64,000 nucleotides of DNA, taken from an uncultured beta proteobacterium. GTDB taxonomy: Bacteria; Pseudomonadota; Gammaproteobacteria; Burkholderiales; Burkholderiaceae_D. This document shows, one piece after another, positions 12,083 to 62,440 of this stretch. Where the stretch lies: the NCBI GenBank assembly GCA_942492925.1, contig OW818641.1:480461-544460 (forward strand). The letters are read 5' to 3'. Below the pieces are notes generated by a model, which was given only the letters and a program-made list of their open reading frames with translations, did no database searches and was not told where the DNA came from. Numbering within the stretch: the first letter of the stretch is position 1; each line of letters opens with the position of its first letter. The position numbers and the translations under genes were made by a program.

Positions 12083-12096
12083 CCCGGCGGTCGGAA

Positions 12097-12122: not shown

Positions 12123-12226
12123 GAGGTACAATGCATTGCGCCGATTTGAACCGAGGAACCCGTTTCCTTCAGCTTGCGGGCGCAGGGGATTCCCCGAATA
12201 AATGCGGCTAAAGCGAGCTTGAAACA

Positions 12227-12266: not shown

Positions 12267-12327
12267 AATAATTGCGGGACAGCGTTAAGTAAAGCGTACT
12301 CTGTCCTCAACAGATCAGTAAACGAAT

Positions 12328-13478
<1,151 letters not shown>

Positions 13479-18502: not shown

Positions 18503-19480
18503 CTATGCGGGTTCCGGTTGCTTGAGTGCGGTACGTAAGGCCAGCGCCAGTTCCGGCGCATCGAATTTGGCAACGTAGGCATCCGCGCCCACATTTTTGA
18601 CGTGGGCTTCATTGGCGCTTCCTGTGAGTGAAGAGTGAATGACCACAGGGATTTGGCTGAAGCGACTGTCGCTCTTGATGTTGCGCGTGAGTGTGAAGCC
18701 ATCCATTTCCGGCATTTCCAGATCGGTGAGCACCAGCGCCACCTTGTCGGTCACCGACGTGCCTTCGGCTTCGGCTTCCTGTAAAAGGCTGTGCAGCTTG
18801 TCCCAGGCTTCTTTGCCACTCTTGGTCATGACGAAAGGCAAGCCCATCGCCCTTAATCCTTGGTCGATCATCGCGCGCGCTACTTGCGAATCGTCTGCAG
18901 CCAGGATGACCGAACCCGGTTTCATTTTTACCGTTGCGCCGGCATTTTCAGCATCAATGGCGTTGATCGAAGACGGCGACATCATGCGCAAGATGGCTTC
19001 CACATCAAGTACCTGTACCAGTCGTGGGCTGTCCAGGCTGGCGTCGAGGCGCGCAATGCTGGTCACCATGCTGTTGGCAACACCTGCTTCTGCGGGAAGC
19101 ACCTGGTTCCAGTCCAGGCGCACGATGTCATCAACCGATTCGACGGCAAAGGCTTGCGCCGTTTGCGCGAACTCCGTCACGAGCATGATGTTCAAGCCCG
19201 TTTTGGGCGTACATCCGACGACGGAAGGCAAATCAATGACAGGAAGGACGGTGCCGCGAATGTTAACGACGCCTAGCATGTTGGGCAAGGAACCGGGAAT
19301 GGCCGTGATGGTTGGCATGGCAATAATTTCGCGGACCTTGAATACATTGATCCCAAACAGTTCAGACTCTTCTTTGCTGGCGTCGCCACCCAAACGAAAG
19401 AGGAGCAATTCGAATTTGTTGGTGCCAGCCAGGTTGGTGCGCGCATTGACTTCGTCCTGAAAAGATTTTGCATCAATCAT
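18503..19480 (-). CDS. cheV: Chemotaxis protein CheV, made of a CheW-like domain and a receiver domain
   Basis: The N-terminal part has CheW-like motifs (FGINVFKVREI..., GVVNIRGTVLPVIDL). The C-terminal part is a REC domain (ILAADDS..., LVLTDLEMPEMDG, ...SSLT). Confidence 0.9.
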   Translation of the reverse strand: MIDAKSFQDEVNARTNLAGTNKFELLLFRLGGDASKEESELFGINVFKVREIIAMPTITAIPGSLPNMLGVVNIRGTVLPVIDLPSVVGCTPKTGLNIMLVTEFAQTAQAFAVESVDDIVRLDWNQVLPAEAGVANSMVTSIARLDASLDSPRLVQVLDVEAILRMMSPSSINAIDAENAGATVKMKPGSVILAADDSQVARAMIDQGLRAMGLPFVMTKSGKEAWDKLHSLLQEAEAEGTSVTDKVALVLTDLEMPEMDGFTLTRNIKSDSRFSQIPVVIHSSLTGSANEAHVKNVGADAYVAKFDAPELALALRTALKQPEPA

Positions 19481-19812: not shown

Positions 19813-20379
19813 ATGTCGTCTCTCATCAATACCGAAATCAAGCCTTTCAAGGCCATGGCGTTTCACAACGGTCAATTCATCAAGGTGACCGAAGCCAATC
19901 TGAAGGGCAAGTGGTCCATCGTCTTTTTCTATCCTGCGGACTTTACGTTCGTGTGCCCGACGGAACTGGGCGATCTGGCGGATCACTATGGCGAGCTGCA
20001 AAAAATGGGCGTCGAAGTGTATTCGGTTTCCACCGATACGCATTTCACCCACAAGGCGTGGCACGACACGTCCGACACGATCAAAAAAATCAAATTCCCG
20101 ATGGTGGGCGACCCGACCGGTACCCTCTCTCGCAATTTTGAAGTCATGATCGAAAGTCAGGGCATGGCCGAGCGCGGCACGTTCGTGATTGACCCGAGCG
20201 GAAAAATTCAGATCATCGAAATTAACGCGGGCGGTATTGGACGCGACGCTTCCGAGTTGCTGCGCAAGGTGAAAGCAGCGCAGTACGTGGCCACGCATCC
20301 AGGCGAAGTGTGTCCGGCCAAGTGGAAGGAAGGCGACGCAACGCTGGCGCCGTCGCTGGAACTGGTCGGCAAGATTTAA
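19813..20379 (+). CDS. ahpC: Alkyl hydroperoxide reductase subunit C (2-Cys peroxiredoxin)
   Basis: 188 aa with the peroxidatic Cys in FTFVCPTE and the resolving Cys in GEVCPAKW. Confidence 0.97.
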
Positions 20380-35608: not shown

Positions 35609-38053
35609 TTATTTGCGACGGGGCTTTTTCTTGGGGGTATCCGCCAGTGAGCTGCCTTGCCCCCATTTCCAGTTCTGGATTTCCGGCATGTCTTCGCCAT
35701 GTTCGTGGACATAGGCCTTGTGCTCCAGCAACTTGTCGCGCAACATTTTTTGCAGATACGCGGCGCTGGAACCCAGTTGCGGCAGCCGGTCGATGACGTC
35801 CATGACCAGATGGAAACGGTCGAGGTCGTTCATCACCACCATGTCAAATGGCGTGGTGGTTGTGCCTTCTTCCTTGTAGCCGCGCACGTGCAGGTTGGCG
35901 TGGTTGGTACGGCGATACGTCAGACGGTGGATCAGCCAAGGGTAGCCGTGGAAGGCGAACACGATCGGTTTGTCCTTCGTGAACATCATGTCGAAATCCT
36001 TGTCGGACAATCCATGCGGGTGTTCGCTTTGCGGTTGCAGCGTCATCAGGTCCACGACGTTGACTACACGCACTTTCAGGCCTGGCATGTAGTCGCGCAT
36101 GATTTCGACGGCCGCTAGGGTTTCCAGGGTGGGGACATCGCCGCAGCACGCCATGACGACATCGGGTTCGCCGCCCTGATCGTTGCTGGCCCACTCCCAG
36201 ATGCCAACGCCCACCGTGCAATGCTTGATTGCTTCGTCCATCGTCAGGAATTGCAGCGCGGGTTGCTTGCCGGCGACCACGACGTTGATGTAGTGGCGGC
36301 TGCGCAAGCAGTGATCCGTCACAGACAACAAGGTGTTCGCATCCGGCGGGAGATACACGCGGGTGATGGTCGCTTTCTTGTTCATCACATGATCGAGGAA
36401 GCCCGGATTTTGATGACTCAAGCCATTGTGATCCTGGCGCCAGACGTGCGAGGACAGCAGATAGTTCAGCGACGGAATCGGCCGACGCCACGGAATCCGG
36501 CGCGAGATTTCCAGCCACTTCGCATGTTGGTTGAACATCGAATCGACGATGTGGATGAAAGCTTCATAGCAGGAGAAGAAGCCGTGGCGACCCGTGAGCA
36601 GGTAGCCTTCCAGCCAGCCCTGGCATTGATGTTCGCTCAAGACCTCCATGACGCGGCCATCGTGTGCCAAGTGGTCATCATACGGATAAATGGTTTCGGT
36701 CCACGTGCGATTGGACACTTCCATCACCGCATTCCAGCGGTTGGAATTGGTTTCATCCGGGCTGAAGACGCGGAAGTTGGTCATGTTTTGTTTCAGCACA
36801 TCGCGCATGAAAGCACCCTGGATACGGGTCGCTTCAGCCTCGACTGTTCCCGGTTTGTCGAATTTGAATTCGTACTTGCGGAAGTCCGGCATCTTCAAAT
36901 CGCGCATCAGGATACCGCCGTTGGCGTGTGGATTCGCGCCCATGCGGCGCTGGCCTTGGGGGGCGAGTTCAGCCAGTTCGGGGAGCAATGCCCCGTTTTT
37001 GTCGAAGAGCTCGTTATGTTTGTAACTCTTCATCCACTGTTCAAGCTGTTTCAAGTGGCTGGGCACTTTGGCGAGCTCGGAGAGTGGTACTTGATGCGAG
37101 CGGAAGGTGCCTTCGACTTTCTTGCCGTCGACCACCTTCGGCCCTGTCCAGCCTTTGGGCGAGCGCAACACGATCATCGGCCATTGTGGGCGTTGCGTGA
37201 ATCCTTTGGTGCGCGCGTCGTGCTGGATTTGCTTGATCTCGGCGATGATGGTGTCCATGGTGGCGGCCATCTTTTGATGCATGGTCGCTGGATCATCGCC
37301 TTCGACGTAATACACTTTATGACCATAACCGCGGAACAGGGCATCCAGTTCGTCATGGGGAATGCGCGCCAGCATGCAAGGCCCAGCGATTTTGCCATCG
37401 TTCAGATGCAGAATGGGCAGCACCGCGCCATCCGTCACGGGGTTCAGGAATTTGTTCGAGTGCCAGCTGGTCGCCATTGGACCGGATTCCGCTTCGCCGT
37501 CACCCACAACGCAAGTGACGATCAAGTCCGGATTGTCGAAGGCCGCGCCATACGCATGCGAGAGTGCGTAACCGAGTTCGCCGCCTTCATGAATCGAGCC
37601 GGGCGTTTCGGCGGCAACGTGACTGGGGATGCCGCCGGGGAAGGAAAACTGCTTGAAGAGTTTTTGCATCCCTTCTTCATCTTGCGGCACGTTTGGATAA
37701 AACTCGCTGTACGTCCCCTCGAGATAGGTGTTTGCCACCAGGCCGGGACCGCCATGGCCGGGGCCGGTGATGTAGATCATGTTGAGATCATGGTTCTTGA
37801 TCACGCGATTGCAGTGAACGTAAATGAAATTCAATCCAGGCACGGTGCCCCAGTGACCGAGTAGCCGCGGTTTGACGTGCTCGATTTTCAAAGGCTTTCT
37901 GAGCATCGCGTTGTCCAGCAAATAAATCTGGCCCACCGACAGATAATTGGCGGCGCGGAAATACGCATCCATTTTTTTCAGCATGTCGGGTGAGAGCGGA
38001 GTGGATTTGTCGGCGTTTTTTCTCGTTGTTATGGCTTGCACTTTTGAATTCAT
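35609..38053 (-). CDS. xfp: Xylulose-5-phosphate/fructose-6-phosphate phosphoketolase
   Basis: 814 aa with ...[15 protein letters not shown]....[15 protein letters not shown]...H.NR...GPGHGGP... and EGGELGY signatures. Confidence 0.93.
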
Positions 38054-40717: not shown

Positions 40718-42010
40718 ATGGGTAAATATGCATTATCGGGCGTTCGCGTCCTCGACATGACCCACGTGCAAGCTGGCCCGACTTCGTCGCAGCTGCTGGC
40801 GTGGATGGGCGCAGACGTCATCAAGTTCGAGCCGCCGGGCACTGGCGACATCACCCGCGTTCAGTTGTGCCATCAGAAGGATGCAGATGGCAAGTGGATC
40901 GACAGCTTGTATTTCACGATGCTCAACAGCAACAAGCGTTCGATCACGGTCAACATGAAGAGCAAGGCTGGTTGTGATGCATTCGAAGCGTTGATCAAGA
41001 ACTGCGACGTCATGATGGAAAACTTCGGCCCTGGCGTTCTGGACCGTTTTGGCTATCCCTACGAAAAACTGATGTCGCTCAATCCTGGCCTGATCTATGC
41101 AACCCTGAAGGGCTTCGGCGCTACGGGTCCGTACGCACAGTTCAAGGCTTATGAGCCGATCGCACAAGCAATGTCGGGCGCAATGTCCACGACCGGTTTC
41201 CCGGAATCCCCGCCGACCATCACTGGTGCACAAGTTGGTGACACCGGTACGGGTCTGCATCTGGCAATCGGTATCTGCGCTGCGCTGTATCATCGCACGC
41301 ACAACGGCGGCAAAGGCCAAATGGTCGAAGTTGCAATGACCGACGGCGTGATGAACCTCTGCCGTGTTAAGTACCGTGACCACGGTCGCTTGATGGGTGG
41401 CAAGGGTGGTCTGTCCGAGTACAGCCGTCCGACCTTGGGTCTGACCTCTGTACCGCGCGCTGGTAATGACTCCGGTGGCGGCCAGCTCGGTAACTGCATT
41501 CCTTGCAAACCGTTCGGCCAAAACGACTATTGCTACATGGTTCTGCAAGAAGCCATCTTCCCGCAAATTTGCGAACTGATCGGCGGCGAAGCACTCAAGA
41601 ACGACGAGCGCTTCCTGAAGATTGCTGATCGTCGCAAGAACCAAAACGAACTGTGGAAGATCATCGCTGACTTCGCGAAGAACTACACCAAGTTCGAATT
41701 GTCGGCACTGTTCAACGGCAAAGACTTCCCATGCGGCCCGGTTCTGACGACCGAAGACGTATCCAAAGACGCACACGTTGCACATCGCAAGATGTGGGTG
41801 GAAGTCAAGGACAGCAAGCGTGGCAACTACTGGACCGTCGGTATGCCGGTGAAACTGTCCGAAGGCAATGTTCCGGAAATCTTGGCTGCTCCGCTGCTCG
41901 GCGAGCACACCAACGAAATCTTGACCCAGGTTTGCGGCTATTCCATGGACCAAGTCAAGAAGATGACCGAAGAAGGTGCGTTCACCGTACCGGAGCGTCG
42001 CAAGAAATAA
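40718..42010 (+). CDS. frc: Formyl-CoA:oxalate CoA-transferase (class III CoA-transferase)
   Basis: 430 aa with ...VRVLDMTHVQAGP...DSLYFTMLNSNKRSI...ENFGPG.LDR.G.... It is collinear with O. formigenes Frc as I remember it, including the Gly-rich loop GNDSGGGQ. Confidence 0.92.
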   Translation: MGKYALSGVRVLDMTHVQAGPTSSQLLAWMGADVIKFEPPGTGDITRVQLCHQKDADGKWIDSLYFTMLNSNKRSITVNMKSKAGCDAFEALIKNCDVMMENFGPGVLDRFGYPYEKLMSLNPGLIYATLKGFGATGPYAQFKAYEPIAQAMSGAMSTTGFPESPPTITGAQVGDTGTGLHLAIGICAALYHRTHNGGKGQMVEVAMTDGVMNLCRVKYRDHGRLMGGKGGLSEYSRPTLGLTSVPRAGNDSGGGQLGNCIPCKPFGQNDYCYMVLQEAIFPQICELIGGEALKNDERFLKIADRRKNQNELWKIIADFAKNYTKFELSALFNGKDFPCGPVLTTEDVSKDAHVAHRKMWVEVKDSKRGNYWTVGMPVKLSEGNVPEILAAPLLGEHTNEILTQVCGYSMDQVKKMTEEGAFTVPERRKK

Positions 42011-53491: not shown

Positions 53492-54628
53492 ATGAAACAG
53501 CTTAACCTTGGCGCGCCAACCATTTACACAGGAAGCGGATCGCTGGCTGCCCTGCGCAATATTCCCGCAACGCGCGTGTTCGTCGTTACAGGCGGATCGT
53601 CCATGTTCAAAAACGGGGCGATCGACGCCGTGCAAACTTTATTCTCAAAAAAAGGATGCGCGGTTTACGTTCATTCCGGCATCCGGAAAAACCCGGACAC
53701 GCACGCGGTCATCGCGGGGCTGGACAAAATGCGCAGCTTTGCGCCGGATGTGGTCGTCGCGATTGGCGGCGGTTCCCCTCTCGATGCGGCCAAAGTCATG
53801 ATGCTGCTCTACGAGCACCCGCATCTCGCGCTCGATACCCTTCCGCGCACGCCGCTGCCGCAAGCGCGCGGGAAGGTGACATTCGTGGCGGTGCCGTCAA
53901 CGTCCGGAACCGGGAGCGAAGTGAGCCGATCCGCCGTAGTGACGTATGCGGAACAGCAGTTGAAGGTTGCTTTTCGCACGCCCTACTTCATCCCGGATGT
54001 GGCCATTCTGGATCCCGATTTGACGATGAGCATGCCTGCCGATCTGGTGGCGGAAACCGGCATGGATGCCATGACGCATGCGATTGAAAGTTATCTCAAT
54101 CCGAATGCCGACGAATTCACCCGAACGCTATCGATCGGTGCTATTGGCGGCTTGTTTGACTATCTGCCTGTGTCTTACCGGGATAGCACGCCGGAGAGTC
54201 GGGCGAAGGTGCATGCGTATCAAAGCATGGCGGGCATCGCTTTTGCCAACTCGGGCTTGGGGATGGTGCATGGCATCGCCCATGCGCTCGGCGGACAGTA
54301 CGACATGGGGCACGGATTGCTCAACGCGATTGTCTTGCCTTACGCCTTGCAGTTTGATGTGGCGCACGACCCAGGCGTGCAGGTGCAACTGGATGGGCTG
54401 GCTCGTCAAGTGGGGAAGCACGATTTGATTCAAGCGCTCTTTGATTTGAACCAGGCATTGCAGATTCCGGGCAGCTTGCGTGAAGCCGGCGTCGCGGCCG
54501 AGCAATTTGAGCGCGACCTGGATCACTTGACGGTCAATGCCCTCAAGGGTCCGACCGCTTCCAACCCGGTCCCCATCACGCCCTCACAAATGACTGGGCT
54601 GTTGCGCCGTGTGTTTGCAGGCAAATGA
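53492..54628 (+). CDS. Iron-containing (group III) alcohol dehydrogenase
   Basis: 378 aa with the GGGSPLDAAK motif and metal-binding His residues in ...DAMTHAIE... and ...GMVHGIAHALGG. Confidence 0.88.
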   Translation: MKQLNLGAPTIYTGSGSLAALRNIPATRVFVVTGGSSMFKNGAIDAVQTLFSKKGCAVYVHSGIRKNPDTHAVIAGLDKMRSFAPDVVVAIGGGSPLDAAKVMMLLYEHPHLALDTLPRTPLPQARGKVTFVAVPSTSGTGSEVSRSAVVTYAEQQLKVAFRTPYFIPDVAILDPDLTMSMPADLVAETGMDAMTHAIESYLNPNADEFTRTLSIGAIGGLFDYLPVSYRDSTPESRAKVHAYQSMAGIAFANSGLGMVHGIAHALGGQYDMGHGLLNAIVLPYALQFDVAHDPGVQVQLDGLARQVGKHDLIQALFDLNQALQIPGSLREAGVAAEQFERDLDHLTVNALKGPTASNPVPITPSQMTGLLRRVFAGK

Positions 54629-54634
54629 ATCGAA

Positions 54635-54817
54635 TCAGGAAGGCGTGGCGGATGTTTCGCCATGCCCCATGCTGTCCAGATAAATTTTTCTAAGCAGCAG
54701 TTCAAGCGCCCTTTGCTTGGTCGAAAAAGACGGAGTGCGCAAGAAAAAATTCACCGCCTCCTCCACTTCATTGGAGGGATTCGTGCCGCCCGGCATTTCT
54801 GGTGAAGTCTTGTTCAT
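54635..54817 (-). CDS. Small hypothetical protein of 60 aa
   Basis: The ATG at 54817 is preceded at optimal spacing by AAGGAGG. The product is MNKTSPEMPGGTNPSNEVEEAVNFFLRT...KQRALELLLRKIYLD.... I cannot name a family with confidence. Confidence 0.55.
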   Translation of the reverse strand: MNKTSPEMPGGTNPSNEVEEAVNFFLRTPSFSTKQRALELLLRKIYLDSMGHGETSATPS

Positions 54818-55191
54818 GCGTTCCTCCTTGTGTTGGATTTCGTTCTCCCACGTCCTCGCGCCGATTTTTTCAGCGCCCTGTTCCATGTGGGCCAAATTCA
54901 GTGAGATTGTCGATAAGGATGCTGCCGTCCATTCATGACGGCTTCATGACAGAAACGATAGGCGCTGCCATGACCATTCTGAGACGCAATTGCCATGCCC
55001 GCCACAAATGGCGCATCAGGTGGGGGCATGACTTGGGGGTGCGTCAACAATAAAAGTTGTGACTATTAAGCTGAATACGGATAGCGCACAGTCTTGGTGC
55101 AGCCCAGAGGCAGGCTTGCGCGGGGATTCGAAAAAGTTAAAAAGCAGGGGCGCAAATACGCACCACATCGAGGCATGAAAATAATTTCCGT

Positions 55192-57546
55192 GTGGCATGG
55201 ATGTTGCTGAATAAGGGGCATAAGAAGCATAAGAAGGTGAAAAGCGTGGGAGTCCCTGTCATGCCTAGAAATTGTGATTTGCAGTCCAGTCATGTTGCGC
55301 GTGAAATCGCAACGTCGAAAAAGCTAAAGTCTGTGTTGGAACAATCCCTTCGTGTGGATCCGACTGAGGAAGCGGCATCGTTTGGCCGATGGTGGCTGGA
55401 TATCGAAACCGGGGCGCTGGTCTTGTCCGCGCTGGCCGGACGATACCTTGATGTTGCCCCGGGCCTGTATCGCAATCATGAGCGTTGCTTCTCGCAAGTA
55501 TTGCCCGATGATGCATGGACACTGACGAACGCGTTCAATTTATTGAAGCAGTCCGGGGTTGCGATGGATTGCGAAATCAGGGTGATCGATGCCATCGACG
55601 GTATGCGCTGGTTGCGTATGGCATCGCTTCCCATCATCCTTGAATCGAAAGGGATGATAGCGGGGGTGGTGATCAACGTCACGGCTACGCAACAGGCCAG
55701 CGTTCGCGAACGGCTGGGGTTCGCATCCACGCAAATTCTGGTCGGAGCGACCACCGAGTCAGAAGCGATTACCGAAGTGATCCGGGTCGTGTGCGAAAAC
55801 CTTGGGTGGGAATGGGGCGCCTATTGGGAAAAGAAAAACGAGCCAGGTGCGCCCGTGTCTCTGGTGTGCAAGCACTTCTGGCACGATCCGGCGTATGGCT
55901 TGAACGCCTTCACACGAGAAAGCCGCGAACTTCAAATCCTGCCGGGAGAAGGCGTGATTGGACGTGTCTGGCGCACAGGATGCGCCGAATGGGTTGAAAG
56001 CCTGTCCAGTCCTCATGACTGTCTCCGTCACAAAGGCGTCGTCGAATGCGGCCTGAAATCCGGGTATGCCTTCCCCGTGAGTTTTGTGAACAGCGAAGGC
56101 GTGCGCCACGTTTCAGGTGTTCTGGAGTTTTGCAGCAGTTTGCCGCGTCAGCGCGAAGCGCAGTTGCCGACTTTGTCCAGAGCCATCGGGGAGTTGGTGG
56201 CGCAAGCCATGCAAAGAATCGAGCAAACCGAAACGATTCAGCGCATGGCACGCACAGATGAAATGACCGGCTTGATCAATCGACGGCACTTCTACCATCT
56301 TGTCGGGCAAGCCTGCCAGGACGCTGAATCGAGAGAGACATCATTTGGCGTTTTGTATATCGACCTAGATCGGTTCAAACCCATCAATGACGCCTATGGA
56401 CATGATGTCGGCAATTTTCTGCTGATTGAGTTTGCAAAAAGGCTGTGTGCATTGGTGCCTGCGGGCGCTTGCGTTGGGCGACTCGGCGGCGATGAATTCG
56501 CTATTTTGTCGCCATTGAATGCCTCCTTAACCATGCTTAAAGCATTGGCCGAGAAGGTGCTCAATGCTGCTGGCGCGGCGTTTCAGCATCGCGGCGTAGA
56601 ACTATCAGTGTCAGCCAGCATTGGCATCAGCGTCTATCCCGAAAACGGCACAACGACGTCGGAACTGTTGCGCAGTTCCGATACGGCGATGTATCGCAGC
56701 AAAAACATGGGCGGCAATCTCAACTGTTTTTATTCAGGCATGATGCAGTTTGATCGCACGGCCATGATTCAGCAACTGACGATTGAATCGGCATTGCATC
56801 GCGCCTTGCTGAAGAATGAATTTTTTCTGGAATACCAGCCCGTGCTGGATAGCTTCGCAGAGAAAATCGTGGCGGTTGAAGCCCTCATTCGCTGGCGCCG
56901 CTCGGGAGGAGAAATTGTTCGGCCGGACGTGTTCATTCCGATTGCGGAGCAAAGTCATCTTATTGTGCAAATCGGGCGGTGGGTGCTGAAACAGGCTTGT
57001 CATGATTTGGCGATTTTTCATCGCGCAGGGCTGGCGGAGCTTCAGGTCAACATCAATATGGCTGTTGCAGAATTTACCCACGCTGGTTTGCCGACGCGAT
57101 TAATGGAGGTGATCAATGCGGCTGGGATTGTACCCAGCAATGTTTGCCTGGAACTGACAGAAGGCATGGTGATGCAGCACGCCGATGACGTCATTCCGAT
57201 CATGGAGCATTTGCGCAAATTGGGATTCCATATCAGTCTCGACGACTTTGGCATGGGCCATTCATCATTGTCAAGATTAAAGGCGCTCCCCATTTCCTCG
57301 ATAAAAATTGATCGATCATTTGTGCGCGGCGTGCCGTCCGTCGCAGATGATTGCGCCATTGTCCAAACGCTGTTCGATCTCGGCCACCGCATGAAATTGC
57401 AAATTGTCGCCGAAGGCGTCGAGACGGAGCAGCAACTGGCGTACTTGCGGCAGTACGGCTATCCCCTGATGCAGGGGTATTTGCTCGGGAGGCCGATGTC
57501 TGCCCAAGCGCTTATCCAACAATACCAACCCCTCGCCAGCTTGTGA
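55192..57546 (+). CDS. PAS-GAF-GGDEF-EAL multidomain c-di-GMP turnover protein
   Basis: The GGDEF region has DEMTGLINRRHF...RLGGDEFAIL. The EAL region has ...VEALIRW..., ELTEG and DDFGMGHSSLSRL..LPISSIKIDRSF. A GAF-like segment (GEGVIGRVWRTG...) sits between PAS and GGDEF. The start is uncertain: GTG 55192, ATG 55201 or ATG 55261. Confidence 0.9.
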   Translation: MAWMLLNKGHKKHKKVKSVGVPVMPRNCDLQSSHVAREIATSKKLKSVLEQSLRVDPTEEAASFGRWWLDIETGALVLSALAGRYLDVAPGLYRNHERCFSQVLPDDAWTLTNAFNLLKQSGVAMDCEIRVIDAIDGMRWLRMASLPIILESKGMIAGVVINVTATQQASVRERLGFASTQILVGATTESEAITEVIRVVCENLGWEWGAYWEKKNEPGAPVSLVCKHFWHDPAYGLNAFTRESRELQILPGEGVIGRVWRTGCAEWVESLSSPHDCLRHKGVVECGLKSGYAFPVSFVNSEGVRHVSGVLEFCSSLPRQREAQLPTLSRAIGELVAQAMQRIEQTETIQRMARTDEMTGLINRRHFYHLVGQACQDAESRETSFGVLYIDLDRFKPINDAYGHDVGNFLLIEFAKRLCALVPAGACVGRLGGDEFAILSPLNASLTMLKALAEKVLNAAGAAFQHRGVELSVSASIGISVYPENGTTTSELLRSSDTAMYRSKNMGGNLNCFYSGMMQFDRTAMIQQLTIESALHRALLKNEFFLEYQPVLDSFAEKIVAVEALIRWRRSGGEIVRPDVFIPIAEQSHLIVQIGRWVLKQACHDLAIFHRAGLAELQVNINMAVAEFTHAGLPTRLMEVINAAGIVPSNVCLELTEGMVMQHADDVIPIMEHLRKLGFHISLDDFGMGHSSLSRLKALPISSIKIDRSFVRGVPSVADDCAIVQTLFDLGHRMKLQIVAEGVETEQQLAYLRQYGYPLMQGYLLGRPMSAQALIQQYQPLASL

Positions 57547-57607
57547 TCCGATGAATCAGACAGACCTGGACGCAATCGCGATTGTATAAAACCCTTCAAC
57601 AAACCGA

Positions 57608-60166
57608 GTGAACAACATGAATGCTGCAACGACGCTCAATCTCGACAAATTTTTACCCCACATGCGCGATGTCACGCGATGCGAGCAATCGCTGCGCGAA
57701 CTGAATTTAACCTGGAGAATGATTGAATCGTCTGCCAAAATGAATTGCCCGGTTGAGGCGCGGGCCATCATCCCGACGATGTCGGCGACCCGTGAAGGAT
57801 TCGATCATCTTGAAAAGGATTTGGTGTCCAGCCTGGTGCGCGAAAAAGTGGCGAATGTGCTGGCCGAGATGGGCACCAAGGCGCAAAACGTGGTCGATAT
57901 TGTGGTGCGAAACCTCTATGAAAGAACGGCAGACGTTGGCTTTCTGGCGACGGATCGCGAGTTGTGCGCCTACGTGGCAGGCTTGAGCGACGACGGAGAA
58001 TCCGTTCGGCAGCGATTGCTGGCGTATCAAAGAAAGTACACGGTCTATGATGAAATCATGCTGCTGGATACGTCAGGCAGCGTGCTCATGCAGATTGACA
58101 GTTACATGCAAGTGGAAGGCAGCAGGGACCCGCTGATTGCGCAAACACTCGCTTCCGATAGTTATGTGGAAACTTTTCGGGCGAGCGACTTGCGTCCGAA
58201 GAAACGACAGGCGCTGATTTATTCGCGCAAGATGCATCACCCGGAAACCAATGACGTCATCGGCTTGTTATGTTTGAGTTTTAACTTTGAGCAGGAAATG
58301 GCCGATATTTATCGAACGCATCGCGATCCTGCCGAGCGATCCAACATGCTCTTGCTGGATGGAGATAATCGTGTCGTGGCCAGCGCCGATCCGCTCTGGA
58401 TACCGATTGGCGCTCACGTGCCGGTGAATCATGAAGCCAGCCCGGCTTTGCGGATGTTTGGCGGCCGCGAATACTTGGTGCGCACCTGTTATGCGGAAGG
58501 TTATCAGTCGTATATGGGGCCGCCGGGATGGCAAGGGCAAGTGATGGTGCCGGCCGAGGTGGCCTTTATCAGTGGCGGCAGCCATTCGCTCAGCCAGCTC
58601 GATCACGATATCGCAGATGGTTTGCTGTCGCACGCCAAGACGTTCTGTCCGCCGTTGTACGACATCATGCAGGCAGCCGATACAATACGTCGCGTGGTAT
58701 GGAATGGGCAGGTGATGACCGCCGGGCAATGTGGCGATTTGCTCAAACTGAAAACGATTCTGGATCAAATCAGCGAAACAGGGAATCGGAGCAATGCATT
58801 GTTTTCGCATTCCATTCAGGATTTATACGAGACCGTGCTGAGTGCCAGTTTGAATGACGTAGAATTCGCCGCGCACTTGCTGGTCGATTTGCTTGATCGG
58901 AATCTCTATGAGCGTGCGAACGATTGTCGCTGGTGGGCACTGACACCGGAATTGCGCGCAGCGCTGGCTGCGCCCGAGCAAGATACCCAAACGGTAGATC
59001 GCTTGAACCGTATCCTGGTCTACATCAACAGCTTGTACACAGTTTACGCGCGCCTGTTCGTGTATGACCGAAGCGGTCGCATTATCACCGGCACGCATCC
59101 AGATGATCGCAGCAATTCGGGAGGCGGCAGTCCGTCGATTGCCGGAGAATGCATCGATATGGAAACACTGGCACAGGTGCTGACGCTGACGACAGAGCAG
59201 GATTACCATGTGACGTCGTTCGGGCCGAGTCCGCTATATGACCATGCGCAGACCTACGTGTATCACGCTGCCATCCGGCATCCCGACCAGCCGTCGCATA
59301 TCGTCGGGGGTATCGGCATTGTTTTTGATGCTGCGCCCGAGTTCTCTGCCATGATTGCCGGTGGGCTGGGTGAGCGTACGGAAACGACAGGTTTTTTTGT
59401 GGATCGCGCAGGCCGTATCATTTCCAGCACGGACGAGAAACGTCCAGTTGGGACAATGCTGGACATCGATCCGTCGCTGCTCAAACTGGAGAGGGGAGAG
59501 AGCGCGGCGCGTATCGTGCTCCATGATGGGCACTACGCCATTATGGGGTGCAGCGCATCGAGTGGTTATCGGGAGTTCAAGGTAACAGATGGATATCAGG
59601 ATGATGTGCTGGCGGTCGTCTTCCGAACATTCGGAGAAATTCGCGTCAGTAATAGCAGTGGCTACACGCATACCCAAAATGGGACCTTGCTGATGAAAGA
59701 TCGTGCGCCGGCCCAAAACGGTGTCGAGTTTGCGACCTTTTACATCGATACGGACTTGTTCGCCATACCCGCTGAATATGTGACGGAAGCGTTTCCCGGC
59801 ACAAAGGTTACGCAGACGTCCATGAACGGCCGTCCAGAATGTATCGGCGTGTTAGCGTTGCCGCAGGAAGTCATTTGGGTATTCGATTTGGGATACCTGA
59901 TACGTGGCGCACGTTCGGCGCTCGATAGCAGAAGTCAGGTCATGGTGGTGCGGCATGGCGATCATACGATGGGCTTGCTGGTGAGCGATCTGCATGATGT
60001 GCCGGAATTCGCCCGGTCAATGATTGTAGCCACGCCGCTGGGGCAGATGAGTGAAAAAACGCTGGTGCCACAAGTGATCAAGGCCAACAACGGTGAACTG
60101 CTGATTCAGGTGATCGATATCGCTTGCTTGATCGATTTGCTGCTGACGCCGGTGGCGCAGGATTAA
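57608..60166 (+). CDS. Soluble sensor protein with two tandem Cache-like modules fused to a C-terminal CheW-like domain
   Basis: 852 aa. There is an internal duplication (NLYERTADVGFLATDRELCAY...YTVYDEIMLLDTSGSV and NLYERANDCRWWALTPELRAA...YTVYARLFVYDRSGRI). The C-terminal ~135 aa carry a CheW pattern (FATFYIDTDLFAIPAEYVTEA...GVLALPQEVIWVFDLGYLI...VMVVRHGDHTMGLLVSDLHDVPEF). No TM segment and no MCP signalling domain are present. The start is GTG 57608 or ATG 57617. Confidence 0.8.
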   Translation: MNNMNAATTLNLDKFLPHMRDVTRCEQSLRELNLTWRMIESSAKMNCPVEARAIIPTMSATREGFDHLEKDLVSSLVREKVANVLAEMGTKAQNVVDIVVRNLYERTADVGFLATDRELCAYVAGLSDDGESVRQRLLAYQRKYTVYDEIMLLDTSGSVLMQIDSYMQVEGSRDPLIAQTLASDSYVETFRASDLRPKKRQALIYSRKMHHPETNDVIGLLCLSFNFEQEMADIYRTHRDPAERSNMLLLDGDNRVVASADPLWIPIGAHVPVNHEASPALRMFGGREYLVRTCYAEGYQSYMGPPGWQGQVMVPAEVAFISGGSHSLSQLDHDIADGLLSHAKTFCPPLYDIMQAADTIRRVVWNGQVMTAGQCGDLLKLKTILDQISETGNRSNALFSHSIQDLYETVLSASLNDVEFAAHLLVDLLDRNLYERANDCRWWALTPELRAALAAPEQDTQTVDRLNRILVYINSLYTVYARLFVYDRSGRIITGTHPDDRSNSGGGSPSIAGECIDMETLAQVLTLTTEQDYHVTSFGPSPLYDHAQTYVYHAAIRHPDQPSHIVGGIGIVFDAAPEFSAMIAGGLGERTETTGFFVDRAGRIISSTDEKRPVGTMLDIDPSLLKLERGESAARIVLHDGHYAIMGCSASSGYREFKVTDGYQDDVLAVVFRTFGEIRVSNSSGYTHTQNGTLLMKDRAPAQNGVEFATFYIDTDLFAIPAEYVTEAFPGTKVTQTSMNGRPECIGVLALPQEVIWVFDLGYLIRGARSALDSRSQVMVVRHGDHTMGLLVSDLHDVPEFARSMIVATPLGQMSEKTLVPQVIKANNGELLIQVIDIACLIDLLLTPVAQD

Positions 60167-60256
60167 TGTTGAACTGCGTGCTGAAATTGTCGTGCGGTAA
60201 ACGCCATCGTCAGTTGGACGAGAGTGTTTGCCGCACGGTGATGCCAATCATCTGAA

Positions 60257-60421
60257 TCAGCGCAGGTTTACCAGACGACGCCACTCTTCGATGGAAATGC
60301 TATTTCGTTGTGCCGCTGGTTTTTCTGCGGCGGGGTCCAGCGTGCTGAGATAAACGGTTGCGCCAGCCATCAGGAAGGTGGTGGCCAGCAGGGCTGCGAG
60401 GGCGGCTTTTGCGTTCGTCAT
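60257..60421 (-). CDS. Small hydrophobic protein of 54 aa, hypothetical
   Basis: MTNAKAALAALLATTFLMAGATVYLS... has one TM or signal-like segment. It lies downstream of the kinase gene on the same strand. Coding status is uncertain. Confidence 0.4.
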   Translation of the reverse strand: MTNAKAALAALLATTFLMAGATVYLSTLDPAAEKPAAQRNSISIEEWRRLVNLR

Positions 60422-60553
60422 GATAAGGTCTCCCAAAAAATGTGCATGGAATGGCGCACACTTTATGTTGAGCAAAACCTGTGCCAACAAAAAATCTTGT
60501 GCAGGTGGTCGGGAGCAGCGGGAGCACAAACAGGCGACGAAAAACGACGGGAA

Positions 60554-60970
60554 TCAATCCGGCAATTTTGCGAACACCATGCGCAGACGGTTCTGATCGT
60601 TCGTGCGCGTGTAACTGACGTTGCTCGTCAACGTGCGAATCAGATACAGCCCCAGGCCGCCGACCGGACGTTCTTCGATGCCTAGGGTAGTGTCGGGATC
60701 GGGCAGGGAGAGCACATCGAAGGGTTTGCCGCGATCGGCAATTTCCAGGACGAAAGCGTCGTTGTTGATGGCGCAAATGATTTCGATGTCGCCTTCGCCG
60801 TGGGCATAAGCATGATGGCAAATATTGACGAAGGCTTCTTCAAGTGCGAGCAAAACGCCGAATTGGGCAGATGTGGGCGCATGGAAACGATCAAGACACG
60901 CCGTCACGAAGGCATTCGCATCGGGCAGCTGCTCGATGCGTGAGGTGAAGTGTTGCGTTTCGGCGCGCAT
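60554..60970 (-). CDS. Anti-sigma-factor-type serine kinase (RsbW/SpoIIAB-like GHKL ATPase)
   Basis: 138 aa with N-box LALEEAFVNICHHA, G1 IADRGKPFD and G2 GGLGLYLI. Its start is 5 nt after the STAS gene stop. Confidence 0.88.
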   Translation of the reverse strand: MRAETQHFTSRIEQLPDANAFVTACLDRFHAPTSAQFGVLLALEEAFVNICHHAYAHGEGDIEIICAINNDAFVLEIADRGKPFDVLSLPDPDTTLGIEERPVGGLGLYLIRTLTSNVSYTRTNDQNRLRMVFAKLPD

Positions 60971-60975
60971 GCGGG

Positions 60976-61311
60976 TCAGGCCAGGGCAGCGACGGCGGCC
61001 GCGACCGAGTCGTGCATCTTGAAAATGGACTGGAAGCCGGAGATGGCAAACACTTCCTTGACCGGCCCTTTCACGTTGGCAAAACAGACATCGCCTGACC
61101 TGGCTTTGACGAGTTTGGCCGTGACAAGCAAACCGCGTAACCCGGCGCTGCTGATGTAGCCGAGTCCGTCAAAATCGATCACGATGCGGGTATCGCCGCC
61201 GTTGATGAGTTGCGTGACTTTGCTTTCGTATTCCGATGCCGTGACGGCATCAAGTCGGCCCGTGAGTGTGACGATTGAAACATTACCCTCTTTTTTTGTG
61301 TGAAACTCCAT
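60976..61311 (-). CDS. STAS-domain anti-sigma-factor antagonist
   Basis: 111 aa with ...VSIVTLTGRLDA... and ...VIDFDGLGYISSAGLRGLL..., which places the conserved phosphorylatable Ser in its usual context. Confidence 0.9.
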   Translation of the reverse strand: MEFHTKKEGNVSIVTLTGRLDAVTASEYESKVTQLINGGDTRIVIDFDGLGYISSAGLRGLLVTAKLVKARSGDVCFANVKGPVKEVFAISGFQSIFKMHDSVAAAVAALA

Positions 61312-61348
61312 ACGGTTCTCCAGAAGTAGATATGTGGAATGGCTGTGC

Positions 61349-62440
61349 TCAGTTCATTTTCATCATCAGCGTCAGAACGTTTTTATCATCGATTTGCTGA
61401 AAGGCGATACTTTCCGTCATGTTCTTGATGATCATCAGCCCGAGGTCGTCCGGCATGTCCGTGTTTTCAACGGGGTTGCTGCCCGAGCCGGCGGATTCGC
61501 ACACGATTTCGATTTTTCTCGTGTTCTCGGAATAAGCGATTTTCATGTGCATGTGGGTTGTGTGCAGGTTCGGCGTGTACAGTTGCAGCACTTCTTCCAC
61601 GAGCAGTAGCAGGTGGTCGCGCACTTCTTTTGAGAGGTATTGCTTGTCGCAGAAGGCTTCGATTTCTGCATTCATCGCATACAAGTCGTAATCGGGTGAC
61701 GTGATATCGTAATTCAGGCTGCGTATCCGGTTGATGAATGCACGAGTTTTTTCGCGTTGCGGATTGTCGAAAATCTGTTCCGGCGACCCGATTTCATAAA
61801 TGATGCCTTCATCCATGTACAACACGCGATTTGAGACTTCCTTCGCCAAGGCCATTTCGTGCGTGACGATGGCCATCGTGATTCCCTCGCGGGCCAGTCG
61901 GCGGATAACCGACAGTACTTCGCTGACCATGGTTGGGTCAAGTGCCGACGTCGGTTCGTCAAACAAAATGATTTCGGGGTCCATCGCCAAGCAGCGCGCA
62001 ATGGCCACGCGCTGCTTTTGTCCGCCCGAGAGTTCATCCGGATAGTTGAACGCTTTTTCTGCCATGCCGACGAGGCGCAGCGTATCGAGTGCTTTTTTCT
62101 CCGCTTCCTCACGGGGTTTGCCGAGCAGCTTGATTTGGGCCAGCGTCAGGTTTTCCAGCGCCGTCAGATGCGCAAAGAGATTGAAAGACTGGAACACCAT
62201 GTTCGCCTTTTGGCGAACTTTTGGTAAATCAATATTTTTTTCCATGACGTTCACGCCGCCGATGTGAATGGCGCCGCCGCTGGGTTCGTCCAGCAGGTTG
62301 AGACAACGCAGGAAAGTGCTTTTCCCGGTGCCGGAAGGGCCGATGATGGAGACGACTTCGCCGCGCTGGATGTGGACGTTCACGTCCCGCAGTACCGTCA
62401 GGCTGCCGTATTTCTTCGAGAGATGTTCGACTTTGATCAT
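61349..62440 (-). CDS. Polar amino-acid ABC transporter ATP-binding protein (GlnQ/HisP type) with a ~120-aa C-terminal extension
   Basis: It has Walker A GPSGTGKST, signature LSGGQKQRVAIAR, Walker B ILFDEPTSALD and an H-loop THEM. Residues ~245-363 lie beyond the canonical ABC core and resemble a degenerate GHKL/SpoIIAB module. Its start overlaps the permease stop (ATGA). Confidence 0.9.
   Translation of the reverse strand: MIKVEHLSKKYGSLTVLRDVNVHIQRGEVVSIIGPSGTGKSTFLRCLNLLDEPSGGAIHIGGVNVMEKNIDLPKVRQKANMVFQSFNLFAHLTALENLTLAQIKLLGKPREEAEKKALDTLRLVGMAEKAFNYPDELSGGQKQRVAIARCLAMDPEIILFDEPTSALDPTMVSEVLSVIRRLAREGITMAIVTHEMALAKEVSNRVLYMDEGIIYEIGSPEQIFDNPQREKTRAFINRIRSLNYDITSPDYDLYAMNAEIEAFCDKQYLSKEVRDHLLLLVEEVLQLYTPNLHTTHMHMKIAYSENTRKIEIVCESAGSGSNPVENTDMPDDLGLMIIKNMTESIAFQQIDDKNVLTLMMKMN

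What the first reader, a model, noticed from the sequence alone, without database searches (positions are those of the whole stretch)
57608..60166. Soluble double-sensor protein fused to a CheW-like domain, with no MCP or kinase domain
The 852-aa ORF contains an obvious internal duplication. Each half opens with NLYER(T/A)xD....(L/W)A..(R/P)EL and then Y(T)VY..(i/l)...D.SG, the pattern that usually begins Cache/PDC-type ligand-binding modules.

The last ~135 aa read as a CheW-like domain (FATFYIDTDLFAIPAEYVTEA; GVLALPQEVIWVFDLGYLI; VMVVRHGDHTMGLLVSDLHDVPEF). I see no hydrophobic TM segment, no HAMP domain and no methyl-accepting signalling hairpin.

Sensor domains are normally wired to chemotaxis arrays through MCP signalling domains. 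A cytoplasmic ligand-binding module joined directly to a CheW scaffold would be an unusual way of feeding information into, or titrating, a chemosensory array.

The gene starts 62 nt after a PAS-GAF-GGDEF-EAL gene, so the two may be co-transcribed. A cheV gene also lies in this window at 18503-19480.
Basis: partly seen in the sequence, partly recalled or inferred. Interest (0 to 1): 0.65.

Follow-up and report, generated by a model that had tools for sequence, protein, structure and literature searches.

The report
Cytoplasmic double-Cache sensor fused to CheW
This gene encodes a soluble protein with two complete Cache-type sensor domains joined to a divergent CheW docking domain; the family is widespread but unstudied, may bring an intracellular signal to the chemotaxis receptor array without a receptor, and often lies next to c-di-GMP enzyme genes.

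Summary
ORF 57608-60166 (+) encodes 852 aa, or 849 aa from the ATG at 57617.

- It has no TM, HAMP, MCP or kinase domain.
- It carries an internal duplication (BLASTP E 2e-12).
- Its C-terminal domain is of the CheW lineage (Pfam E 2.5e-15; family profile E 1e-22 against CheW structures but only 0.01 against CheA-P5).

An AF2 model built from 55 diverse relatives is confident and compact (pLDDT 89, pTM 0.85). It shows two repeats, each a helical hairpin plus a full double-PDC dCache fold, followed by a CheW fold.

The family is real and conserved. It comprises 335 clusters at 50% identity and occurs in at least 589 species genomes, mostly Burkholderiales. In the members sampled, the sensor module occurs either alone (~665 aa) or fused to CheW, with no other output domain.

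The CheW domain keeps G57, E38 and V36. It has lost the canonical R62/G63 signature, which E. coli CheW needs for coupling but not for binding.

The genes are orphans, not in che operons. They are often adjacent to GGDEF/EAL genes of at least six architectures. The window's PAS-GAF-GGDEF-EAL pair is conserved in seven other genomes.

Best reading: an array-docked cytoplasmic sensor/adaptor linked to c-di-GMP signalling. I found no paper describing it. I rate it a new variant of a known kind.

The parts
57608..60166 (+). Whole gene for the tandem-dCache-CheW protein. It encodes 852 aa from the GTG at 57608; the likely true start is the ATG at 57617, giving 849 aa.
   Evidence: ORF list. The identical 849-aa protein P0001 is in the public collection. 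More than 120 full-length homologues share 62-72% identity.
57665..57949 (+). First helical hairpin, residues 20-114 (H20-46 and H55-114). The second helix continues as helix alpha-1 of dCache #1.
   Evidence: AF2 model md61a2215af41, pLDDT about 90 in this region.
57908..57955 (+). Family signature motif 1, RNLYERTADVGFLATD (residues 101-116).
   Evidence: One of the two most conserved 20-residue blocks in the 55-member diverse alignment (0.83; motif 2 scores 0.81). R101, L103, E105, R106 and D109 are invariant.
57869..58555 (+). dCache-like domain #1 (about residues 88-316): a long helix plus two PDC modules.
   Evidence: Pfam dCache_1 best stretch at residues 134-265. Secondary structure. 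Foldseek matches to dCache ligand-binding domains (DctB, Tlp3, Mlp37, 8w7p, 3lif) with target TM-scores of 0.6-0.73.
58604..58936 (+). Second helical segment, residues 333-443 (H333-346, H348-370, H377-443). It corresponds to the first hairpin.
   Evidence: AF2 model. The internal duplication alignment begins in this region.
58895..58942 (+). Family signature motif 2, DRNLYERANDCRWWAL (residues 430-445).
   Evidence: Mean conservation 0.81. R431, L433, Y434, E435, D439, W442 and W443 are invariant in the diverse alignment.
58859..59638 (+). dCache-like domain #2 (about residues 418-677). It ends with the conserved GYRE(F/Y)K strand. The sensor-only relatives end a little beyond this point.
   Evidence: Internal duplication. 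AF2 model. C-termini of the ~665-aa relatives.
59720..60145 (+). CheW-lineage domain (residues 705-846), divergent. G57, E38 and V36 equivalents are kept; the R62 equivalent is Pro and the G63 equivalent is Gln.
   Evidence: Pfam PF01584 E 2.5e-15. Family profile against PDB: CheW 1e-22, CheA-P5 0.01. Foldseek to CheW 2ch4_W: target TM-score 0.87, rmsd 2.2 A. Residue mapping.
55192..57546 (+). Upstream, co-directional PAS/GAF-GGDEF-EAL gene with GGDEF and EAL motifs intact. It is the probable operon partner.
   Evidence: Pfam. Orthologues (733-1002 bits) lie directly upstream of the family gene, at about -21 to +36 nt, in L010, L011, L019, L022, L040, L048 and L072. No convincing promoter or terminator was found in the 61-nt gap.
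18503..19480 (-). Orphan cheV (CheW plus receiver) in the same window. It shows that the genome has chemotaxis components.
   Evidence: Pfam CheW 7.5e-28 and Response_reg 9.2e-14. The flanking genes are housekeeping genes.

Best explanation
**What it is.** The gene encodes a cytoplasmic sensory adaptor. Two tandem dCache modules, each preceded by a helical hairpin, pack into one compact body. The arrangement may be an intramolecular mimic of the homodimer that membrane dCache sensors form; this was not checked. The body probably binds an intracellular small molecule whose identity is unknown.

**How it docks.** The C-terminal CheW-lineage domain docks this body onto the cytoplasmic face of a chemoreceptor array, at receptor tips or in CheW/CheA-P5 rings. 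The domain has lost the R62/G63 signature. In E. coli CheW that signature is needed for receptor-to-kinase coupling but not for partner binding. I therefore infer that the domain acts mainly as an array-targeting or array-binding module, not as a standard coupling protein.

**What it does there.** Ligand-dependent changes in the bulky sensor body would then have one of two effects. They could perturb array packing or kinase control. Alternatively, they could bring partner proteins to the array.

**Likely partners.** The best candidates are the c-di-GMP-metabolising enzymes repeatedly encoded next door. In this window that partner is the PAS/GAF-GGDEF-EAL gene 61 nt upstream.

**Shown versus inferred.**
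- Shown: the domain folds, the CheW lineage of the C-terminal domain, loss of R62/G63, family-wide conservation, and the gene neighbourhoods.
- Inferred: ligand binding, array docking, and any interaction with the GGDEF-EAL protein.
For: **Folds and architecture**
- The CheW-lineage domain is supported and by Foldseek (target TM-score 0.87).
- The two dCache folds are supported.
- The model is compact and confident (pTM 0.85).

**Output domains**
- In 55 diverse members the only Pfam families found repeatedly are Cache-type sensor families and CheW (dCache_1 in 49, CheW in 33). There is no MCPsignal, GGDEF or HisKA.

**Links to chemotaxis genes**
- One sensor-only relative is followed 22 nt later by a cheV (L008/L009).
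- Another sensor-only relative is preceded by a HAMP-MCP gene (L006).
- MCP genes are adjacent to the family gene in L052 and L062 and within about 1.2 kb in L065 and L085.

**CheW residue pattern**
- G57 is kept in 108/112 members, E38 in 83/112, and V36 (as V or I) in 97/112.
- R62 is kept in only 21/112 and G63 in 32/112. All five canonical controls have R62.
- Ortega et al. 2013 (PMC3828127) report that R62 substitutions leave binding to receptor and CheA intact but abolish function.

**Links to c-di-GMP genes**
- A GGDEF/EAL gene lies within about 1.2 kb in about 20 of 80 loci, in at least six different architectures and orientations.
- The window-type gene pair is conserved in seven genomes.

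**Precedent**
Against: - There is no experimental data for any family member.
- The gene is never found in a che operon. No CheA neighbour was seen, and only 2 of 80 loci have a distant hit to the CheV query (E 1e-9 and 3e-8).
- Most loci, about 60 of 80, have no GGDEF/EAL neighbour.
- Neighbourhoods in Sulfuriferula, Curvibacter and Noviherbaspirillum are unrelated to signalling.
- Loss of R62/G63 could mean that the domain no longer binds array partners at all.
- The window sequence scores below the Pfam cut-off for dCache_1 (40.2 against 45).
- The invariant residues lie in the alpha-1 helices, not in a recognised ligand pocket. Ligand binding is therefore unproven.
- I could not check whether this genome encodes CheA or MCPs.
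Confidence: 0.5

Rival explanations
1. **Chemotaxis-independent regulator of c-di-GMP enzymes.** The CheW-like fold has been co-opted as a generic protein-protein interaction module. It binds the neighbouring GGDEF/EAL protein or other non-array partners. The tandem Cache body controls c-di-GMP synthesis or breakdown in response to a metabolite, and the chemoreceptor array plays no part.
For: - GGDEF/EAL genes of several architectures recur next to the family gene.
- The genes lie outside che operons.
- The canonical R62/G63 signature is lost.
- The sensor module also exists without any CheW domain, as the ~665-aa clade.
Against: - The domain is clearly of the CheW lineage. It keeps G57, E38 and V36, which are receptor-side residues in E. 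coli CheW.
- Some family genes are adjacent to cheV or MCP genes.
- I know of no CheW-like domain with a partner outside chemosensory complexes (my own knowledge, not tested here).
Confidence: 0.2
2. **Decoy or titrator.** The CheW-like domain competes with genuine CheW or CheV for receptors or CheA without supporting kinase activation. The protein therefore down-tunes or disassembles arrays when its sensor is occupied, acting as a ligand-controlled anti-scaffold.
For: - The residues needed for coupling, R62/G63, are lost while the receptor-side residues are kept.
- In E. coli, R62 variants bind partners but do not function (PMC3828127).
Against: - Nothing in the data separates this reading from constructive docking.
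- The large, highly conserved and compact sensor body (pTM 0.85) and the c-di-GMP gene linkage suggest more than simple competition.
Confidence: 0.15
3. **Cyclic-dinucleotide receptor.** The tandem Cache body itself binds c-di-GMP or a related nucleotide. It would use the invariant charged and aromatic helix motifs, which contain R-x-x-D (ERTAD and ERAND) followed by WW. It would then report second-messenger level directly to the chemotaxis array.
For: - The invariant residues R101/E105/R106/D109 and R431/E435/D439/W442/W443 are the most conserved features of the family.
- c-di-GMP-metabolising genes recur as neighbours.
- c-di-GMP input into chemotaxis has precedents (PMC3604760, listed).
Against: - RxxD is a four-residue pattern that arises easily by chance.
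- Here it lies in a helix, unlike the I-site loop of GGDEF domains.
- No known c-di-GMP-binding domain was detected by Pfam.
- The motifs could equally form the interface between the two repeats.
Confidence: 0.1

Closest known systems
CheW, the single-domain coupling protein (e.g. E. coli CheW, T. maritima CheW; PDB 2HO9, 1K0S, 2CH4)
   Same: The C-terminal 140 residues have the same two-subdomain fold (target TM-score 0.77-0.87). The family profile matches CheW at E 1e-22. The G57, E38, V36, V88 and G99 equivalents are retained.
   Different: A 700-residue N-terminal sensor body is attached. The N60-L61-R62-G63 signature is degenerate: R62 is kept in 19% of members and G63 in 29%. The gene is not in a che operon.
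CheV (CheW fused to a receiver domain)
   Same: CheV is also a CheW-like domain fused to a regulatory domain that lets a signal (phosphorylation) act at the array. One sensor-only relative is encoded 22 nt upstream of a cheV.
   Different: The accessory domain here is N-terminal and is a ligand-binding-type dCache pair, not a C-terminal phospho-receiver. The window's own CheV has a canonical CheW domain (97 bits, with R62 present).
Array-associated CheW-like proteins with non-coupling roles: ParP of Vibrio and FrzB of Myxococcus (recalled from memory, not tested here)
   Same: These are precedents for CheW-like domains that serve mainly to integrate a protein into arrays or to stabilise arrays, and not to activate CheA.
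   Different: Neither carries sensor domains. No sequence comparison with them was done here.
dCache_1 ligand-binding domains of transmembrane chemoreceptors and kinases (PctA, Tlp3, Mlp37, DctB)
   Same: Each half of the sensor has the same double-PDC fold with a long N-terminal helix.
   Different: Those domains are periplasmic, flanked by two TM helices, present once per chain and active as homodimers. Here two copies are in one cytoplasmic chain and the TM helices are replaced by soluble helical hairpins. The family's invariant residues lie in helix alpha-1; known ligand-pocket motifs were not compared systematically.
Pch/DipA phosphodiesterase recruitment to the P. aeruginosa chemotaxis machinery (Kulasekara et al. 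2013, PMC3861689)
   Same: A GAF/PAS/GGDEF/EAL enzyme is functionally tied to chemotaxis arrays, and the authors proposed an unidentified adaptor. The window encodes a PAS/GAF-GGDEF-EAL protein directly upstream of a CheW-like-domain protein.
   Different: Orthology between the window's enzyme and Pch was not tested. Pch has a degenerate GGDEF motif, whereas the window protein has GGDEF intact. No Pseudomonas member of the family was among the 80 best loci.
Chemosensory pathways with c-di-GMP output (Wsp; the Geobacter Esn system with the CheW-family protein EsnB, PMC8835794)
   Same: CheW-family proteins take part in pathways that control diguanylate cyclases.
   Different: Those are complete MCP-CheW-CheA-response-regulator operons with receiver-GGDEF outputs. 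Here there is no kinase or receiver domain nearby.

Membership tests
CheW-like domain (Pfam PF01584) | Profile score above the curated cut-off | tested here: met
   56.7 bits against a cut-off of 23.5, E 2.5e-15, residues 708-842. 33 of the 36 long forms sampled also match.
CheW-like domain (Pfam PF01584) | Two-subdomain beta-barrel CheW fold | tested here: met
   Foldseek to 2ch4_W gives a target TM-score of 0.87 at rmsd 2.2 A; to 8c5v_E it gives 0.82.
CheW lineage (as opposed to CheA P5) | Closer to CheW than to the P5 domain of CheA | tested here: met
   The family profile matches CheW chains at E 1.8e-22 to 1.6e-17 and CheA chains at E 0.013-0.15.
Canonical CheW coupling protein | Conserved Gly57 and Gly63 (absolutely conserved in F1 and F7 CheW; PMC3828127) | tested here: not met
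   G57 is kept in 108/112 members, but G63 in only 32/112. The window protein has Gln at the G63 position.
Canonical CheW coupling protein | Arg62-Glu38 salt bridge, required for function | tested here: not met
   E38 is kept in 83/112 members, but R62 in only 21/112. The window protein has Pro. All five canonical controls have Arg.
Canonical CheW coupling protein | Single-domain protein of about 150-170 aa encoded with cheA or other che genes | tested here: not met
   The protein is 852 aa with a 700-aa N-terminal extension. No cheA was found in 80 loci with 6-kb flanks.
CheV | C-terminal receiver domain | tested here: not met
   No Response_reg hit.
Methyl-accepting chemotaxis protein | MCPsignal hairpin domain (PF00015), usually with TM and HAMP | tested here: not met
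   No MCPsignal or HAMP hit in the window protein or in 55 relatives. No TM segment.
dCache_1 (Pfam PF02743) | Profile score above the curated cut-off | tested here: inconclusive
   The window protein scores 40.2 bits against a cut-off of 45. 49 of 55 relatives match at E<=0.01, with a best E-value of 1.4e-21.
dCache_1 (Pfam PF02743) | Long helix plus two tandem PDC (PAS-like) modules | tested here: met
   Secondary structure of the confident model. Foldseek gives target TM-scores of 0.6-0.73 to DctB, Tlp3, Mlp37, 3lif and 8w7p. This holds for both halves (duplication).
dCache_1 (Pfam PF02743) | Extracytoplasmic location between two TM helices (the usual context) | tested here: not met
   No hydrophobic segment and no signal peptide-like N-terminus.
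dCache_1 (Pfam PF02743) | Binds a small-molecule ligand in a PDC pocket | not testable with these tools
The family's invariant residues lie mainly in helix alpha-1.
ParP-type array-integration proteins | CheW-like C-terminal domain plus an N-terminal ParC-interaction region | not tested
The resemblance is by analogy only.

The most novel reading that the evidence does not exclude
The family may be a ligand-gated CheW-like adaptor that physically tethers PAS/GAF-GGDEF-EAL (Pch/DipA-like) and other c-di-GMP enzymes to chemoreceptor arrays. Kulasekara et al. (2013) postulated an adaptor of this kind but did not identify it. An intracellular metabolite would then decide whether c-di-GMP turnover is coupled to the chemotaxis machinery. 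This would be a previously unrecognised way of entering a chemosensory array, in which the sensor goes straight to the scaffold and bypasses the MCP.
Probability: 0.2. Interest if true: 0.8.

Novelty: new variant of a known kind. Interest (0 to 1): 0.6.

Why it matters
**The textbook rule.** Chemotaxis arrays are thought to receive sensory input only through MCP receptors. CheW-like domains are regarded as passive couplers, or in CheV as phosphorylation-tuned couplers.

**What this family would change.** A conserved family occurs in at least 589 species genomes, and in it a complete tandem dCache sensor is wired directly to a CheW-lineage domain. If it works as proposed, some bacteria feed intracellular chemical information into the array at the scaffold level, or use the array as a platform.

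**The c-di-GMP connection.** The repeated, independently arisen adjacency to c-di-GMP enzymes gives a concrete and testable candidate for a physical link between chemotaxis arrays and second-messenger turnover. That link has been inferred in Pseudomonas, but its adaptor is unidentified.

**A structural point.** The protein is also a rare example of cytoplasmic dCache domains, possibly a single-chain pseudo-dimer. This is useful for understanding how Cache sensors transmit signals without a membrane.

Tried and rejected
**Sequence and profile searches that gave nothing**
- A single-sequence search against PDB sequences found nothing, either for the full protein or for the CheW domain alone. Only the family profile worked.
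- NCBIfam has no model for this protein.

**Structure prediction**
- The first AF2 run used 25 close homologues and gave a poor model (pLDDT 68, pTM 0.37). I replaced it with the run based on the diverse alignment.
- No PDB chain matches more than one domain of the model; the highest query TM-score is 0.24.

**Search for a conserved che operon**
- The neighbourhoods in Sulfuriferula, Curvibacter and Noviherbaspirillum are unrelated to one another.
- A CheV query found only two distant hits in 80 loci.

**Search for a split CheW gene after sensor-only relatives**
- The 135-aa ORF after the L092 gene is not CheW-like (hhalign probability 0.6%; no Pfam CheW hit).
- The ORFs downstream of the L005 gene look spurious.
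- L090 has no che neighbour.

**Other context in the window**
- The anti-sigma (HATPase_c_2) and STAS pair downstream of the window gene is convergent and is not found in any of the 80 related loci. I dropped it as a partner.
- The promoter and terminator scan of 54600-61400 found no more sites than expected by chance and nothing convincing in the 61-nt gap.

**Literature**
- Searches for Cache-CheW fusions returned nothing relevant.
- The two Vass/Bourret/Foster preprints on CheW-like domain architectures do not mention Cache. They note only rare PAS-CheW fusions.

**Tests not possible**
Full report
**1. Checking the observation**

The ORF at 57608-60166 (+) is present and encodes 852 aa from a GTG. 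The public gene call for the identical protein (P0001) starts three codons later, at the ATG at 57617, and gives 849 aa.

Pfam finds a CheW-like domain at residues 708-842, with E 2.5e-15 and 56.7 bits against a cut-off of 23.5. It also finds two dCache_1 stretches that total 40.2 bits, below the cut-off of 45. NCBIfam has no model for the protein.

The internal duplication is real. Residues 73-313 align with residues 403-668 at BLASTP E 2e-12, with 23% identity over 268 columns.

There is no transmembrane segment. The only Kyte-Doolittle peak, 2.14, lies at residue 831 inside the CheW domain. No HAMP, MCPsignal or kinase domain was detected.

The upstream ORF 55192-57546 is PAS/GAF-GGDEF-EAL and ends 61 nt before the GTG. 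The ORF 18503-19480 (-) is a CheV.

**2. Structure**

A first AlphaFold2 run used 25 close homologues and was poor (pLDDT 68, pTM 0.37). A second run used 55 diverse family members and gave mean pLDDT 89.1 and pTM 0.85. This is a compact model with a confidently placed arrangement of domains.

The order of elements in the model is as follows.

| Element | Residues |
|---|---|
| First helical hairpin | H20-46, H55-114 |
| dCache #1 (two PDC modules) | strands 147-315 |
| Second helical segment | H333-346, H348-370, H377-443 |
| dCache #2 (two PDC modules) | strands 480-677 |
| CheW fold | 705-846 |

Foldseek against the PDB matches single domains only.
- dCache ligand-binding domains of DctB, Tlp3, Mlp37, TlpA, 3lif and 8w7p match with target TM-scores of about 0.6-0.73.
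- CheW chains match with target TM-scores up to 0.87 at rmsd 2.2 A.
- No solved chain resembles the whole protein. The highest query TM-score is 0.24.

Each 'sensor' is therefore a full dCache, and the protein carries four PDC modules. I could not obtain model coordinates. The attractive idea that the two repeats form an intramolecular mimic of a dCache homodimer remains an inference from the high pTM.

**3. The family**

More than 120 full-length homologues share 62-72% identity with the window protein. All are about 850 aa and combine dCache_1 with CheW. They come from Oxalobacteraceae, Comamonadaceae, Sulfuriferula and related groups, and carry only the automatic name 'chemotaxis protein CheW'.

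I searched one representative per 50%-identity cluster using the sensor part alone (residues 1-705). This found 865 clusters at E<=1e-3 and 335 at E<=1e-30.

The hits fall into two length classes.
- Proteins of about 850 aa have the sensor followed by a CheW domain.
- Proteins of about 665 aa end about 15-25 residues after the conserved GYREYK strand that closes dCache #2.

In a distance tree of the sensor region, the short forms are mostly one clade. Named examples come from Gammaproteobacteria such as Acidihalobacter and Thiorhodospira.

Pfam scans of 55 diverse members found dCache_1 in 49 and CheW in 33. The other Cache-type sensor families (Cache_WalK, 16 members; sCache_3_2, 4) and a few weak hits in one or two members each were also seen. 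No MCPsignal, GGDEF, HisKA or other output domain was found. This sensor module is therefore not a generic interchangeable input. In the sample it occurs only alone or with a CheW domain.

The best 80 loci are essentially all Betaproteobacteria, plus one Geobacter MAG.

The most conserved parts of the family are the two helix motifs, not the CheW domain. They are RNL[YF]ERTADVGFLATD (residues 101-116) and DRNLYERANDCRWWAL (residues 430-445).

**4. The CheW-like domain**

A profile of the family's C-terminal domain matches solved CheW proteins at E 1.8e-22 to 1.6e-17. It matches CheA chains (the P5 region) only at E 0.013-0.15. The domain is therefore of the CheW lineage.

I mapped 112 long-form members onto E. 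coli CheW numbering.

| E. coli position | State in the family (of 112) | Window protein |
|---|---|---|
| G57 | kept in 108 | G |
| V36 | V or I in 97 | V |
| E38 | kept in 83 | E |
| V88 | V or I in 95 | V |
| G99 | kept in 92 | G |
| I39 | Ala in 88 | A |
| N60 | lost | A |
| R62 | Arg in only 21 | P |
| G63 | Gly in only 32 | Q |

All five canonical controls have Arg at position 62. These are E. coli, T. maritima and T. tengcongensis CheW, the window's CheV and the L008 CheV.

Ortega et al. (PMC3828127) report three relevant points.
- G57 and G63 are absolutely conserved in F1 and F7 CheW.
- R62 and E38 form a salt bridge.
- R62 substitutions leave binding to receptor and CheA essentially intact but abolish chemotaxis. 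[quoted passage not shown]

By that standard, the family's domain looks competent for docking but not for standard coupling. This step is inference.

**5. Genomic context**

The gene is an orphan. Its neighbourhoods in Sulfuriferula, Curvibacter and Noviherbaspirillum are unrelated to each other and to chemotaxis.

I clustered all flanking ORFs of the 80 loci. No cheA was found. The one strongly recurrent neighbour class is c-di-GMP enzymes.

- **Window-type pair.** Orthologues of the window's upstream gene (733-1002 bits) lie directly upstream on the same strand. By my ORF calls the spacing is -21 to +36 nt. This is seen in L010, L011, L019 (Rhodoferax), L022 (Paucimonas), L040 and L072 (Pseudoduganella) and L048. 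A disrupted copy is present in L012.
- **Methylotenera.** Five loci have a PAS-PAS-GGDEF-EAL gene transcribed divergently upstream.
- **Duganella.** Two loci have a MASE11-PAS-GGDEF-EAL gene followed by an MCP gene downstream.
- **Other loci.** L036, L063 (both sides), L021, L022 (a PAS-GGDEF gene) and L059 (a Reg_prop-Y_Y_Y-GGDEF gene) add further architectures.

About 20 of 80 loci have such a gene within about 1.2 kb, against 5 hits further out in the 6-kb flanks. The variety of architectures and orientations argues for several independent associations, not one inherited arrangement. Relatedness among the loci nevertheless inflates the raw count.

MCP genes are adjacent in L052 and L062 and lie within about 1.2 kb in L065 and L085.

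Among six sensor-only relatives examined, the results were mixed.
- One is followed 22 nt later by a cheV (L008/L009).
- One is preceded by a HAMP-MCP gene (L006).
- Four have no chemotaxis neighbour, although L093 is a 2.2-kb contig with no flanking genes. A candidate downstream ORF in L092 is not CheW-like.

In the window, the 61-nt gap before the gene contains no convincing promoter or terminator. The convergent anti-sigma/STAS pair downstream is not conserved elsewhere.

**6. Mechanism**

The best-supported reading is a cytoplasmic sensor/adaptor. A compact tandem-dCache body, presumably binding an intracellular small molecule, is delivered to chemoreceptor arrays by a docking-competent but coupling-degenerate CheW-lineage domain.

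Once there, it would either perturb array packing or kinase control, or act as a platform for partner proteins. The neighbouring c-di-GMP enzymes are the best partner candidates.

A precedent makes the last option concrete. In P. aeruginosa the GAF/PAS/GGDEF/EAL phosphodiesterase Pch needs CheA to localise and act. The authors argued that this 'likely' happens through an unidentified adaptor, noting that only CheW-like and receiver domains are known to bind CheA (PMC3861689). The window encodes a PAS/GAF-GGDEF-EAL enzyme immediately upstream of a CheW-like-domain protein. I did not test orthology to Pch, and the window enzyme has an intact GGDEF motif, unlike Pch.

Three rivals remain open.
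- A chemotaxis-independent regulator of c-di-GMP enzymes.
- A ligand-controlled decoy that titrates receptors or CheA.
- A cyclic-dinucleotide receptor that uses the invariant R-x-x-D/WW helix motifs.

None of these is excluded by the present data.

**7. Comparison with what is known, and novelty**

The two preprints that survey CheW-like domain architectures report that 16 of 111 Pfam architectures hold about 94% of the domains. [quoted passage not shown]

Full-text searches for Cache-CheW fusions returned nothing relevant. That library excludes most subscription journals, so prior work cannot be ruled out.

The protein is a member of the CheW-like domain family. It fails the defining tests for a canonical CheW (G63, the R62-E38 bridge, single-domain size, che-operon context), for a CheV and for an MCP. 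I classify it as a new variant of a known kind: a CheW-like array protein with a built-in tandem cytoplasmic dCache sensor.

**8. Verdict**

The finding is moderately to highly interesting. It is a conserved, uncharacterised architecture with a confident structural model. Its CheW domain shows a specific and interpretable degeneration. It also has an unexpected, repeated genomic link to c-di-GMP enzymes. All functional statements remain inference.

Noticed in passing
L057:3177-8517 (uncultured Hydrogenophaga MAG): Two family genes lie head to tail (3177-5756 and 5764-8517), forming a tandem pair of paralogues. Herbaspirillum rhizosphaerae UMS-37 also has two copies, on different contigs (L026 and L080).
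   Followed up: no
P0141, P0168/P0285 (Candidatus Gracilibacteria MAG): These remote family members show Trp at otherwise invariant Gly positions, for example 'IWLLVD' in place of 'IGLLVD'. This is as expected if UGA, which encodes Gly in Gracilibacteria (code 25), was translated as Trp. A CheW-fusion protein in a CPR lineage is itself unexpected.
   Followed up: no
window 60554-61311 (-): A STAS anti-sigma-antagonist gene (60976-61311) and an RsbW-like HATPase_c_2 anti-sigma kinase gene (60554-60970) converge on the 3' end of the Cache-CheW gene. This pair was not found next to the family gene in any of the 80 related loci.
   Followed up: partly
window 57608 vs 57617: The start codon is ambiguous. 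The longest ORF begins at the GTG at 57608, while the public gene call uses the ATG at 57617 (849 aa). No clear Shine-Dalgarno sequence precedes either.
   Followed up: partly
window 18503-19480 (-): The cheV gene is an orphan. It is flanked by a PLP-dependent enzyme gene (17236-18435), a peroxiredoxin gene (19813-20379) and an AhpF-like gene (20596-22140), not by che or flagellar genes.
   Followed up: partly
window 27609-29318 (+), 40718-42010 (+), 35609-38053 (-): The window also encodes a TPP-dependent decarboxylase-type enzyme, a family III CoA-transferase and a phosphoketolase. Together with the closest homologues being from Oxalobacter and Oxalicibacterium, this suggests an oxalate-using member of the Oxalobacteraceae. 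The species itself was not among the genome-collection hits; the best was 71% identical.
   Followed up: no
L059 and L061 (Duganella), about 6001-13200: Three genes lie in the same orientation: the family gene, then about 1 kb further a MASE11-PAS-GGDEF-EAL gene, then about 6-27 nt downstream an MCP gene. This is a possible three-gene module linking all three functions.
   Followed up: partly
L037, L078 and protein P0086: Family genes appear on short contigs of MAGs labelled Bradyrhizobium and Stenotrophomonas (L037, L078), and protein P0086 is labelled Bacillota. All are 59-69% identical to Burkholderiales proteins, so these are probably binning contamination and not true distribution.
   Followed up: no
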